Position numbers and translations under genes: made by a program. A DNA stretch of 64,000 nt from assembly GCA_035084275.1 (NCBI GenBank), contig CM068742.1, positions 46,190,001-46,254,000 on the forward strand. The letters are read 5' to 3'. The notes under the pieces were generated by a model. It had not been told where the DNA came from and ran no database searches. It worked only from the letters and a program-made list of their open reading frames with translations. The stretch is from Hydrolagus colliei. Taxonomy: Eukaryota. Positions 14,459 to 26,845 of the stretch are shown in pieces (the stretch's first letter is position 1; each line of letters starts with the position of its first letter).

Positions 14459-14783
14459 GGAGCCCAGTAGCTCAGTGGTTAGAGCACTCACTTTGAAAGT
14501 GAGAGATCTGGGTTCGATTCCCAGCAGGGTGAAACCCTTCCTTGGGGAAGTTTCTTTTCTCCACATACCTGATAATAATCCTTCAGGAAAAAAACCCAAT
14601 AATAAATTGATCACTTCAATCCACGACTGTTTATGGACACTGCTGTCTTGCACAATTAGCTGCCACGTTTCACCCATAAATATGCAGTCAATTTACTTTA
14701 CAATATATTCTGAGAAGCGCTTTGAGCCATCCAGAAGACGTGAAAAGCACTATATCAAATGCAAGGATTATTGTTATTATTAT
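14459..14783 (+). mobile_element. Full-length tRNA-derived SINE
   Basis: A box TAGCTCAGTGG, anticodon-like stem ctcac/gtgag, B box GGTTCGATTCC, then body and LINE-type tail ending (TAT)n. Four further near-full copies in the window. Confidence 0.9.
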
Positions 14784-15461
14784 AATAGAAACTTGGTGTA
14801 TTCCCACCTCATACACAATGTAATTAAATGATCACAGATCAGGCGATTTCTCCCCTCTTCTCACAAAATCAATGTAATAGTGATAATCTGTGCATTTGAT
14901 ATTGCACCTTCCACAGTGGGAGGAGGTAGCTCCTTTCACATTGCCTTAAAGTACTTTGCAAGATTTATTGTGAAGTTTTATGACGATGTATTTTGTAGAC
15001 AATCACAGCAGCCAGTTTGCACACAGCAGTATTATACAAACAGCCATGAAGTGAACTCAAAATCTTGTTGTGGGGCTTCTACCCATAACTTCTGACTCAG
15101 AGTCAAGAGCCCAACCAACTGAGCTAGATTGACACCTGCTAACACTCGGTGACTGGCAATGTGGTTGTGTGTATGGTACAAACAAGTGCCAATTGCCAGG
15201 CACTGGATGTGTTCTATTTGGACTTCCTTTCCCTCACTCCCCAGATTGTCTTGCATAAAATTTGAACTAATTATAGTTTCCTTTTATAAAAGGACCTTGA
15301 GCTTTTCCGTCACTATGTGATGGGTGAAACAACACTGAGCATGACAACAGAAATGCACTGGGGAGATTAGAGTTCTTTTAAAAGGGACCTTTCCAGTTCC
15401 AAAGAGGCCCAAATTCAGCAGATGTTTTAACTAAACCTGTACTGGTCTCAGCTCAGGCTGG

Positions 15462-15696
15462 AACCAAAAACAAAGGTTGCTGGGGAAACTCAGCAGGTCA
15501 AGCAGCATCCATGGAGAAAGGAAAAAGAGTCAACGTTTCGAGTCTACATCCCTTCCTCAGTCCTGACAAAGGGTTGTAGACCCGAAACGTTGACTCTTTT
15601 TCCTTTCTCCATGGATGCTGCTTGACCTGCTGAGTTTCCCCAGCAACCTATGTTTTTGTTTCAGATTCCCAGCATCTGTAGTATTTTGTGTTTTGT
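15462..15696. mobile_element. Palindromic Penelope-type (pseudo-LTR) element with minimal hammerhead motifs
   Basis: 14-bp TSD tcagctcaggctgg (15448-61, 15697-710); 99-bp inverted arms 15462-15560 and 15563-15661; CTGAnnA...GAAACGTT motif in each arm. Family assignment is from known PLE structure. Confidence 0.75.
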
Positions 15697-16512
15697 TCAG
15701 CTCAGGCTGGCCCTGGTCTCAGTTCAAAGCTGATAATCTATGTGCTCAATCTGACTTGATTCACACTCAGCCCTTCAACTCATTAGTTTAAATTCTTTAG
15801 ATGGATTTCTCGGAAGGTTTTAAACATTTTTCTGCCCGTAGCAGTGCAGTGGTGCAGCTACTGTTTTCACACCTTTCTTTCAGGCTTATCATATCAGAAC
15901 AGCTTCCACTTCCTTGCAGATAACTAGCTTCTTTGCATCAACTCAAAACTGCAGTTAAAACATTGCTTTTAGTTAAAGTTTGAGGATCATGTTTTTAGAA
16001 GCATTTGATACATCTAGCAAATTTTAAGCACCATGTATTGAATTACAGTTTATTAGTGCAGTTACCACCTTCCTAACTTTAGCACAGAATGAACTTTGTC
16101 ACAAATCTGCACCCATTAACATGAGATAGGAGTTAATTTCAGAATTTCCGTAGTACAGGTACTGTAGTTTGTTTTTCTCTTACAGTTGTATGTTAACTTG
16201 CAGTATTGCATATCTGTTGGTCTGGTGAAACATTGTGTGGATAATAATCACTCGATTATCAATTGACTATTAATTAAGACATAAAATATTCATTGCCACA
16301 ATCAACAATTTCACATTTTCAGAGTTTTAGCATTTTTTTCAAAGAGTCACAGAATGCGACAGCACAAACCTGCCATTCAATCTGTTTTCATCTTGTCTAA
16401 TGCCACTCTCATTCTCCATAACCTCTATTACTCCTCTTTTTCAAGTAGCTAATTTCCTAAGATTTTTTTGGTCAACTGCGTGTTTGACGCATGCAGAAAC
16501 GCTTAGCTCAGG

Positions 16513-24222: not shown

Positions 24223-25602
24223 GTAAGTACATTTAAAGCAATCTTTGCTCATTTGGTGCTTACAATCACCGAACACCATTCTCCCAGCTGAGGGAGCACA
24301 CCCACAGCATTGTACCATTTAGGTGCTATGCTGCCTGGCTCCAAACTGACAGTGTTCATGTAAACATAAGTGTTTTTAGCACAGAAGAAAACTGTGTCTG
24401 TGTTTGTGCCAGTGCTAACTCTGTTTTTTCTAATTATCCTCTTTCATTTTTTCCACTTTCCAGTTCTTTCCCCAGTATCCCTAATGTTTTATACCAGTGA
24501 ATTGTTTCAATAATTAGTTTTTAATAATAATAATAATAATCTGGTCACTTCAATCCACGACTGTTTGTGGGACGCTGTTATGTGCAATTAGCCGCCGTAT
24601 TTCGCCCACAAAGTCATTTAACTTCATAGTATATTCTGTGAATCACTTTGAGACGTCTAGAAGACGTGAAATGCGCTATATCAAATGCAAGGATTATTAT
24701 TATTGTTCCAATGCAAATTGTCGTGTGAAAGTGTTGCCATCATCCAGAAATCAGCCTTGATGATGCCCTGTACACTGCCCCGCATGCCCCGCATGTTGAC
24801 ACTAGAGAAAACAGTGACCTTCTGGTTCTGTGTGTCAGTGGAGCAGCTTCTTGATTAACTGGCCTAACAGAGAAAGCTTCCCACCCATCATGTGCATTCC
24901 ACATAAGCAGGAACAAGATTTATTCTGTATTCAACCATCCAATCTAAACCTGCACTGCAGGATAAACATATGTGGGTTAAATCCTGCTAGTGGTGAAATG
25001 AACTATTACAATTTCGGTATTAACGCAGGATCCAAAAAATAGCTTGGATAGACAATGTAGTGAGGTCCACTGGACCATCTGAACAAACCTCCCCCTCGGT
25101 TTGGTGAATAAAATGTGACTGTTGCCATCAAGTTTTCCATTATCGGTTATTTGTCAGTCACTACTAAACTCAGATTGTCTGACACTTCATAACTTCAAGC
25201 GCTCCGGGACGTCACATGAAGGACTATATAAAAGCAAGTTATTGTTAATGGTGATACCCCCACCACCCCACCCCCCACCACCAAAATAAGCTTTATGGTT
25301 CACTCTCTTTTCAGTTAAATTGTCATTTCCTAGCTGCTTTCCGAAAAATATACTCAGGGGAAGAATCTATTTTGCAAATAAGATTTGCAGAGCTGGCAAA
25401 CTGTGGCCAAACTATAACTGTTCAAAACTATAGCTCTTTTTGGAAATAGAATAACATCAATTGCAGAAACCTGAAGATACAATCTGAGGATTTATGTGTT
25501 TGTGTGCAAATAGTAAACATCAAATATGCATATCTGTAATAATTAAACACATTTGCTGGGCATCAGGCTTACACACATACGACTAGTGAGAATGTACCAG
25601 CA

Positions 25603-25908
25603 AAAACGCAAAATACTGCAGATGCTGGAAATCTGAAACAAAAACAGAAGTCATTGGGAACACTCAACAGGTCAGGCAGCATCTATGGAGAAAGGAAAAG
25701 TGAGTCAACGTTTCGGGTCAATGACTTTTCAGCAGAACTGGAGCATGTAGGGATTAAGGATTAACAGAGAGGCGGGGAGGCAGGGCAAGGAAGACAAAGG
25801 AGAAAATGGGGTGGAGGGCAGGAAATGATGGGATAAAGAGGTGTTAATGTTGTGAAACAAAAGGGGGAATTGCAACAAAACTGGAGAGAAGAGGTATTAA
25901 TAATGTTG
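25603..25908 (-). mobile_element. Second Penelope-type element, single arm, decayed hammerhead
   Basis: 13-bp TSD gaatgtaccagca (25590-602, 25909-21); clearly homologous to the 15.5-kb element; minus strand CTGCTGA...GACCCGAAACGTTGACT at 25703-39. Confidence 0.75.
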
Positions 25909-26845
25909 GAATGTACCAGCAGTTTATGAGACTCTTCAGGACTCAGAGCAGAAACAGAATTCATTATGTTCCTGTGTTCATACATAATCTCAAATCTGAA
26001 TGAAGTTGGGACTTCATGTGAGGCAGTAGTTAGCCACTTGGGGGCAGCATGCTACCTTTTTCACATACACTTCTCTATTAAGCTGCGGTTTTCTGCTAAT
26101 CTTCATTTTAGTAAAAAATGTTGCTTTGCACTTCATCAGAAGAACCCAAAGGTTATTGATGCAGAATCATCATAATAATAATAATCCTTGCATTTGATAT
26201 AGCCCTTTTCAGGTCTTCTGGAAATCTCAAGGCGTTTCTCAAAATACTTCACATTTGTTAAATAGATTTTTTATAAATCCTCAAGGAAGAGGGACGATGA
26301 CCTGAAAATGTTACTGCGCAGGACAGGAGAACATTGAGTTAATGACTATTGTAATTATACACTGGTAAACCTAGTCAAGGCTGATAATTCCTTAACCACA
26401 TTCAAGGCCATTTGCCGCATTTCTATTTGTTTTTCTTGTCAATTCATTGCTCTCATGCAAGTGTTTCCTTCTGCTGGAGTATAGTCCCATGTGTACGCTA
26501 CATGATCCAAATGGGCATTCTTCATGTATGAGTCTTGACGTTAAGCATTATGAGGCAGTGAGGCAGGAGGGGATGAATATCACAGCCATACCTGATTTGT
26601 TCCATACCTGTGGAGGGTCACTGGAAATGATCAGGAGCAGGAACGCTGGCTGATGGTCCCTCTCTAACCCAGGTGGCTGAAACCAAAGGTAATATCCCTG
26701 TTGCAAAGGCCAAGTTGAGGTTAGTTAAGTCTTGATGTGGAATTGCATTTAGGATCTACCCTGTATGGTTTAGCTACTTACTGAATAAACTTGCTGAGCC
26801 ATCAGAAGAGCTAATCAAAGCTCCTTTAGGGAAAGATTTGAATAG

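What the first reader, a model, noticed from the sequence alone, without database searches (positions are those of the whole stretch)
15448..15710. TSD-flanked 99-bp palindrome made of two back-to-back minimal hammerhead motifs inside a MEF2C intron
Seen: arms 15462-15560 and 15563-15661 with a 2-nt spacer, about 6 mismatches and a 67-nt perfect run; 14-bp TSD. Sense strand: agtc-CTGACAA-a-gggt(tgtag)accc-GAAA-cg-TT-gact (15559-95), a type I hammerhead layout with G8 changed to A (fits CpG decay). Antisense strand: CTGAGGA-a-ggg(atgtaga)ctc-GAAA-cg-TT, canonical core but poor stem I. Known: Penelope-like elements carry minimal hammerheads with a palindromic helix III (here AACGTT) that act as dimers. 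Inference: a non-autonomous unit mobilised as a fold-back RNA. The ribozyme in the host-sense strand is mutated and also masked by the hairpin, which would protect the pre-mRNA; 4 of the ~6 mismatches fall in the 20 nt of the ribozyme region.
Basis: partly seen in the sequence, partly recalled or inferred. Interest (0 to 1): 0.7.

Follow-up and report, generated by a model that had tools for sequence, protein, structure and literature searches.

The report
Double-primed Penelope stub with hammerhead remnant
This 237-base mirror-image insertion in an intron of a MEF2 gene is one of thousands of short stubs of a Penelope-like jumping gene, likely built afresh at this site from two DNA copies of the element's RNA rather than moved as a ribozyme hairpin, and its ribozyme motif is damaged and predicted to be locked in the hairpin.

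Summary
The palindrome, 14-nt duplication and hammerhead motif are real. The unit is the pLTR end (hammerhead, about 100 nt, plus a 35-nt tail) of a Neptune-type Penelope-like element: long copies carry RT and GIY-YIG. It is not a self-propagating fold-back unit. In a position-ordered sample, 50 of 50 palindrome junctions differed; 50 of 53 palindromes had the tail on exactly one arm and none on both; either arm could be the longer (22 vs 22); only 4 of 50 kept both hammerhead scaffolds. Best model: both nicks of one staggered cut prime cDNA, one at each of two start sites. The cDNAs often run to the RNA's probably capped 5' end just upstream of the hammerhead and are joined head to head. G8A occurs at the neutral CpG rate (7/53 vs 7/52), and here the host-antisense arm has more hammerhead changes (3 vs 1), so the 'protective mutation' idea is unsupported. 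The architecture is in print; I did not find the dual-priming rule in 7 paper searches. The scan noted this family and this model before on other DNA.

The parts
15448..15461 (+). Left target-site duplication, 14 nt (last base shared with the inverted arm)
   Evidence: 45 of 50 sister palindromes have a duplication of 10 nt or more, mode 14, vs 9 of 298 random flank pairs
15461..15560 (-). Inverted, tailless arm: family positions 0 to 99 (0 = hammerhead C3); outer end at the proximal 3' end site; inferred second cDNA
15528..15560 (-). Truncated hammerhead remnant on the host-antisense strand: core letters present, 5' strand of helix I missing, three private changes (N7, two in helix II)
15558..15562 (.). 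Head-to-head junction: 3-nt overlap (15558-15560) shared by both arms, then a 2-nt spacer that belongs to the sense arm
   Evidence: junction spectrum
15559..15595 (+). Type I minimal hammerhead motif: 4-bp helix I, extra A after A9, 4-5-bp helix II, palindromic helix III; G8 changed to A at 15568; predicted cut between 15591 and 15592
   Evidence: sequence; family columns; motif features as in PMC4209133
15559..15662 (+). Sense arm: pLTR 3' part from the inferred RNA start (A at 15559) to the proximal end site
15612..15678 (+). Predicted stem-loop pairing 15612-15620 with 15670-15678; it encloses the proximal end site; only one-sided changes, no true covariation
15663..15697 (+). 35-nt Penelope 'tail', present on this arm only; its end is the distal end site
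15697..15710 (+). Right target-site duplication (first base shared with the tail)
25590..25920 (-). Second, older, non-palindromic stub of a sister family: about 170 nt of 3' UTR, decayed hammerhead, tail, 12-nt duplication (25909-25920 and 25590-25601)

Best explanation
It is a short insertion of a Neptune-type Penelope-like retrotransposon, likely assembled at this site from two cDNAs rather than copied from a palindromic master. Shown: the sense arm plus tail is the pLTR end of an element encoding RT and a GIY-YIG nuclease; in a tandem copy the same segment precedes the ORF; copies end at two fixed 3' sites 35 nt apart; palindromes carry one arm of each kind, with a junction unique to each site. 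Inferred: the nuclease makes a staggered cut about 14 nt wide; each 3'-OH primes reverse transcription of element RNA, one at the distal and one at the proximal start site; priming in the 5' pLTR gives short cDNAs that often run off the RNA's 5' end at about position -4/-3, probably a capped transcription start; the two cDNA ends are joined through microhomology or templated filler. Both arms usually derive from the same template sequence; a minority look like two templates. The hammerhead is a passenger. Here it has decayed by CpG mutation, has no same-strand partner within the insert, and is predicted to be buried in the hairpin.
For: Origin: 27 of the 30 long copies were printed with this segment behind the nuclease by pattern or by eye; RVT_1 E 4.4e-6 and GIY-YIG E 4.6e-4, both below Pfam's cut-off; CX4CxxC linker, the Neptune/Nematis mark (PMC8557442); L301 shows inverted arm, pLTR, tail, then an ATG at +168 leading on to the RT. 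Two end sites: singles 29 with tail, 28 proximal, 2 other, of 59. Coordination: 50 of 53 palindromes have one tail, 0 both, 3 none; P = 2.8e-12 if the arms chose independently. Longer arm: tail 22, tailless 22, equal 6; 14 vs 16 of 33 in the subset anchored outside the hammerhead. Junctions: 50 of 50 distinct; 36 filler, 12 microhomology, 2 blunt. 5' ends: 40 of 101 arms at -7 to +2, 5 of 101 at the cleavage site 28-31. Non-templated base before A(-4): G in 44 of the first 100 of 362 hits (hand count) vs 25% expected, P = 4e-5. Arm concordance at six subfamily sites 218 of 249 vs 0.665 +/- 0.024 in 5000 permutations; this copy's arms share two minority variants. In vitro, an anole PLE cuts and extends both strands and starts at two sites flanking the tail (PMC11167929).
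Against: No intermediate was observed; all mechanism is inferred from end points. In PMC11167929 the start site did not differ between strands, so the one-tail rule is not reproduced in vitro, and that element is Poseidon-type. 9 of 43 palindromes differ between arms at two subfamily sites (0.7 expected), which a single-RNA version does not explain. The G excess is not unique to -4: 37 of the first 100 of 511 at -3 vs 28% expected, P = 0.03; only 2 of 30 inspected loci show a clean duplication-G-element junction, and 2 show no extra base. About half of the insertions are single arms. The sample is anchored on exact 26-mers in the first 30 Mb of one contig, which favours young copies and gives palindromes two chances.
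Confidence: 0.75

Rival explanations
1. Self-priming or fold-back of one cDNA (or of an antisense template, as proposed for rotifer PLEs) copies one arm from the other.
For: Arms usually share subfamily variants (218 of 249). This copy's junction is a 3-bp micro-inversion with a 2-nt loop. The published interpretation of head-to-head PLE palindromes is self-priming on an antisense template (PMC3846280).
Against: Fold-back of the tail-primed cDNA requires the tail arm to reach at least as far 5' as its copy, but the tailless arm is longer in 22 of 50, by more than 10 nt in 19; in L107 and L116 the tail arm is little more than the tail. Fold-back of a tailless cDNA cannot supply a tail. 36 of 50 junctions hold filler rather than a hairpin tip. 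9 of 43 have discordant haplotypes.
Confidence: 0.12
2. One reading: a fixed non-autonomous palindrome is transcribed as a fold-back RNA and retrotransposed whole.
For: Many near-identical 230-240-nt palindromes exist; the 30 best hits are about 91-94% identical to this one, and several of those share a similar centre.
Against: Those 30 were selected for similarity to this copy. In the position-ordered set all 50 junctions differ; the outer end of the inverted arm is an end site also used by 28 of 59 single copies; arms co-vary within a copy rather than by side; long copies also carry inverted arms (L165, L170, L301).
Confidence: 0.05
3. Two independent insertions, or later conversion, produced the inverted pair or its arm similarity.
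For: Discordant haplotypes in 9 of 43; 5 shared non-consensus changes vs 103 unshared at other sites allow a little conversion.
Against: One duplication encloses both arms in 45 of 50; the one-tail rule cannot arise from independent events; most private changes are not shared, so conversion is rare.
Confidence: 0.04
4. Hammerhead self-cleavage defines the short copies, or host selection disabled the sense-strand ribozyme in this intron.
For: G8 is catalytically required (G8C abolishes cleavage, PMC11167929); palindrome arms carry somewhat more non-CpG changes in the hammerhead region than downstream (32/964 vs 23/1282, P = 0.03; singles 21/773 vs 14/803, P = 0.23).
Against: No pile-up of 5' ends at the cut site (5 of 101 at 28-31 vs 25 at -5 to -2); G8A 7 of 53 vs neutral N7 7 of 52; 25 of 38 full arms keep an intact core; the antisense arm here is the more mutated.
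Confidence: 0.04

Closest known systems
EN+ Penelope-like element insertions with an inverted 5'-truncated pLTR and a 30-40-bp tail at one end (PMC8557442 Fig. 2 passage; Pen2a_Av, PMC3846280)
   Same: Head-to-head inverted copy, tail on one arm only, target duplication, tandem pLTR leading into the ORF.
   Different: Here most insertions are only the 100-135-nt pLTR end, present in thousands of copies, so end-point rules can be counted. The published explanation is self-priming; these counts favour priming from both strands.
Neptune/Nematis clades of PLEs
   Same: RT with DKG motif, CX2-5CxxC linker, C-terminal GIY-YIG with cysteines between the two motif halves.
   Different: No tree was built, so Neptune vs Nematis is not resolved; no intact ORF was among the copies translated.
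Minimal hammerheads of metazoan PLE pLTRs (PMC4209133)
   Same: Type I, 4-bp helix I, extra nucleotide between A9 and G10.1, G10.1-C11.1 pair, palindromic helix III; that paper also notes pairs on opposite strands 100-700 bp apart.
   Different: This copy has G8A; cleavage untested.
Poseidon PAc of Anolis in vitro (PMC11167929)
   Same: Two RT start sites flanking the tail; both strands cut and extended; ribozyme not needed for insertion.
   Different: There the ORF starts inside the hammerhead and the tail is coding; here the first ATG follows the tail. The passages read do not link the two start sites to inverted arms.
Non-LTR retrozymes (10.64898/2026.07.22.740005, introduction)
   Same: Non-coding, PLE-related, type I hammerhead.
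   Different: Retrozymes are head-to-tail tandem repeats; this is head-to-head and is a truncation product of the autonomous element.
L1 twin priming (recalled, not from a call)
   Same: Second-strand priming gives an inverted 5' segment inside one duplication.
   Different: L1 arms do not overlap in sequence; here both arms copy the same stretch.

Membership tests
EN+ Penelope-like element | Linked RT of PLE type | tested here: met
   RVT_1 matches (below Pfam cut-off) and PLE-type motifs in long copies ending in this segment
EN+ Penelope-like element | C-terminal GIY-YIG nuclease with CCHH cysteines | tested here: met
EN+ Penelope-like element | pLTR in tandem, same segment at both ends of the ORF | tested here: met
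   Segment precedes the ORF in L301-L304 and follows the nuclease in L121-L150
EN+ Penelope-like element | 30-40-bp optional tail | tested here: met
   35 nt; 29 vs 28 singles with and without
Neptune/Nematis clade | CX2-5CxxC linker before the nuclease | tested here: met
   criterion from PMC8557442
Neptune clade | Placement in an RT phylogeny | not tested
   no reference sequences on hand
Minimal type I hammerhead | Conserved core with helices I and II in the family | tested here: met
   Core columns and helix pairs in 30 old and 30 young copies; only one-sided changes; no Rfam hammerhead hit at E <= 10
Minimal type I hammerhead | Intact core and accessible fold in this copy | tested here: not met
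   G8A; helix probabilities 1e-13 or less in the insert
Minimal type I hammerhead | Self-cleavage as a dimer | not testable with these tools
   needs a bench assay
Non-autonomous palindromic element (MITE- or SINE-like master) | Copies share one internal junction | tested here: not met
   50 of 50 junctions distinct
Non-LTR retrozyme | Head-to-tail repeats each with a hammerhead | tested here: not met
   head-to-head single unit

The most novel reading that the evidence does not exclude
Penelope inverted pLTRs are made by a dimeric enzyme that primes from both strands of one cut and always assigns the distal start to one strand and the proximal start to the other. It often copies the capped 5' end of its RNA to run-off, so the genome records the transcription start and cap, and it sometimes uses two different RNAs.
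Probability: 0.5. Interest if true: 0.6.

Novelty: new member of a known kind. Interest (0 to 1): 0.36.

Why it matters
The locus itself is ordinary and probably inert. As a set, the copies bear on an open question: reviews call the tandem and inverted structures of Penelope elements unexplained (PMC8557442), and the published guess is self-priming (PMC3846280). The one-tail rule, the symmetry of arm lengths and the run-off ends give sharp predictions for the existing in vitro system.

Tried and rejected
Rfam: only miRNA-hairpin matches far below gathering scores; no hammerhead family hit. Pfam GIY-YIG search of the genome returned a different, subtelomeric family with no match to this segment in 30 loci. 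RNA runs: no RNA holder listed, so editing and start sites were not tested. Protein atlas gave no usable hit for the host exon. Splice-acceptor explanation of the 5' pile-up (as in D. virilis, where an intron ends at helix I): no shared upstream exon in 30 loci, so it is disfavoured but not excluded. RT stalling on helix I would predict ends near +33; no peak there. The dimer-cleavage paper PMC5785218 is not held; known only through the review PMC6765202. Strand-bias test across genes not run, as no annotation was available. Rows dropped before counts: of 120 parsed insertions, 5 pairs with gaps over 100 nt, 2 pairs and 1 single at 85% identity or less. L115 (tail-only arm) was mis-split and L200 (11-nt inverted tail) counted as single; both fit the one-tail rule. 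No supplements were read.

Full report
Observation. The inverted arms (15461-15560, 15563-15662; 94%), 2-nt spacer and exact 14-nt direct repeat are as described, with six mismatches and a 67-nt perfect run. The fold is far beyond chance (z -22.5). The host is a MEF2 gene on the + strand: MADS box and two HJURP_C exons upstream and a downstream exon with a paralog at another MEF2 locus. The label MEF2C is recalled, not tested.

Family. The insert has 2,124 first-look candidates in the genome. Two exact 26-mers give 1,020 and 2,753 hits, reversed controls 0. Locus L098 and the other copies found with its nuclease region carry the same segment downstream of a GIY-YIG domain and a pyrimidine-rich UTR. 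Longer copies add an RT (Pfam scores below cut-off) and a CX4CxxC linker, which marks Neptune and Nematis (PMC8557442, passages). In L301 the segment also stands before the ORF, with an ATG 168 nt after C3, and is preceded by an inverted arm. So the segment is the pLTR end. An inverted truncated copy and a one-sided 30-40-bp tail are described features of these elements (PMC8557442, passages; PMC3846280, passages).

How the palindromes form. I parsed 120 loci taken in genomic order from the two pattern lists and kept 112 insertions after dropping 8 (see Tried and rejected): 53 head-to-head pairs and 59 singles. Singles end at two sites 35 nt apart about equally (29 and 28). If arms chose independently, half of the pairs would have one tail; 50 of 53 do, none has two (P = 2.8e-12). 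The longer arm is the tail arm in 22 and the tailless arm in 22. All 50 junctions are distinct: 36 with filler, often copied from the element or target, 12 with microhomology, 2 blunt. One duplication of 10 nt or more encloses both arms in 45 of 50 (control 9 of 298). These counts exclude a fixed palindromic master and a simple fold-back. They fit priming from both nicks of one cut. An anole element does extend both strands and starts at two sites flanking its tail in vitro (PMC11167929, parts 1-2 of 4), although no strand difference in start site was seen there.

Template. Arms of one insertion agree at 218 of 249 subfamily sites against 66.5% for shuffled pairs (0 of 5000; 184 of 204 without the noisiest site). 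This copy's arms share two minority variants. Yet 9 of 43 pairs differ at two sites where 0.7 are expected. Most pairs thus come from one template sequence, and some from two RNAs, a template switch or later conversion; I cannot separate these.

Why so short. In the subset anchored outside the hammerhead, 40 of 101 arms start at -7 to +2 and 5 at the cleavage site. Position -4 is the A of an initiator-like motif (consensus recalled). Among the first 100 of 362 arms starting there with a non-template base, G precedes in 44 (hand count; 25% expected), as copying of a cap would give. The control at -3 also shows some excess (37 of 100), so this is moderate evidence. No shared upstream exon was seen in 30 loci. 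Inference: priming in the 5' pLTR yields run-off cDNAs of 100-135 nt.

The ribozyme. The family motif matches the minimal PLE hammerhead, including the extra base after A9 and the palindromic helix III (PMC4209133, parts 1-2 of 4). Such motifs cleave weakly even as dimers (same paper; PMC6765202, passages). Both scaffolds are complete in only 4 of 50 palindromes. G8A occurs in 7 of 53 arms and the neutral neighbour change in 7 of 52. Here the antisense arm has three hammerhead changes and the sense arm one. The hairpin is predicted to bury the motif (39.5 kcal/mol), but that follows from the insertion geometry and needs no selection. One result leans the other way: palindrome arms have a mild excess of non-CpG changes in the hammerhead region (P = 0.03), which is also the region nearest the junction.

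Novelty. Architecture, tail and hammerhead are known. Seven paper searches did not show a dual-priming account of the inverted arm; subscription papers are largely missing from that library and no supplements were read. Also seen: 10.64898/2026.07.22.740005 (part 1 of 5) and PMC2377424 (passages). The scan's own notes record this family in this genome and the same model in eight other windows; I had written the model down before seeing them and do not count them as evidence.

Verdict. A real feature and a new member of a known kind, probably inert at this locus. Its value lies in the copy statistics. Interest 0.36.

Noticed in passing
window 14461-14790 (+): tRNA-headed repeat (Rfam tRNA 62 bits, ARAGORN tRNA-Ser call); matches in 164 of 305 fetched loci, so most likely an abundant SINE rather than a tRNA gene.
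   Followed up: partly
L002, L014, L019, L145, L240, L241, L263: Several independent insertions abut the same site inside that SINE-like repeat; 9 of 315 arm ends matched the motif (L241 repeats L092's place, L229 is doubtful). Possible mild target preference.
   Followed up: partly
window 25590-25920 (-): Older sister-family stub; 5,089 first-look candidates; some sister copies also have inverted arms (L080, L087, L090).
   Followed up: partly
L031-L060 (for example G000 C38 26-66 kb, C21 18.68-18.71 Mb): A different, young GIY-YIG retroelement family with 783-codon open frames, in tandem arrays mostly near contig ends, with telomere-like repeats in its 3' UTR and no match to this segment.
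   Followed up: no
L197, L236/L255, L245, L248: Fillers made of short repeated copies of the element's first 10-12 nt, as if the enzyme jumped repeatedly at the RNA 5' end.
   Followed up: no
L241-L270: By eye, 15 of the 18 arms with G before A(-4) have T before that G, often several; this would fit cap copying followed by untemplated A additions.
   Followed up: no
window 15640-15665 (+): The T-rich stretch ending in CAG resembles a splice acceptor in host-sense orientation; not tested.
   Followed up: no
G000 C38 4.15-4.33 Mb: Eight near-identical RT matches spaced about 22-30 kb apart, suggesting a segmental tandem array holding an element fragment.
   Followed up: no
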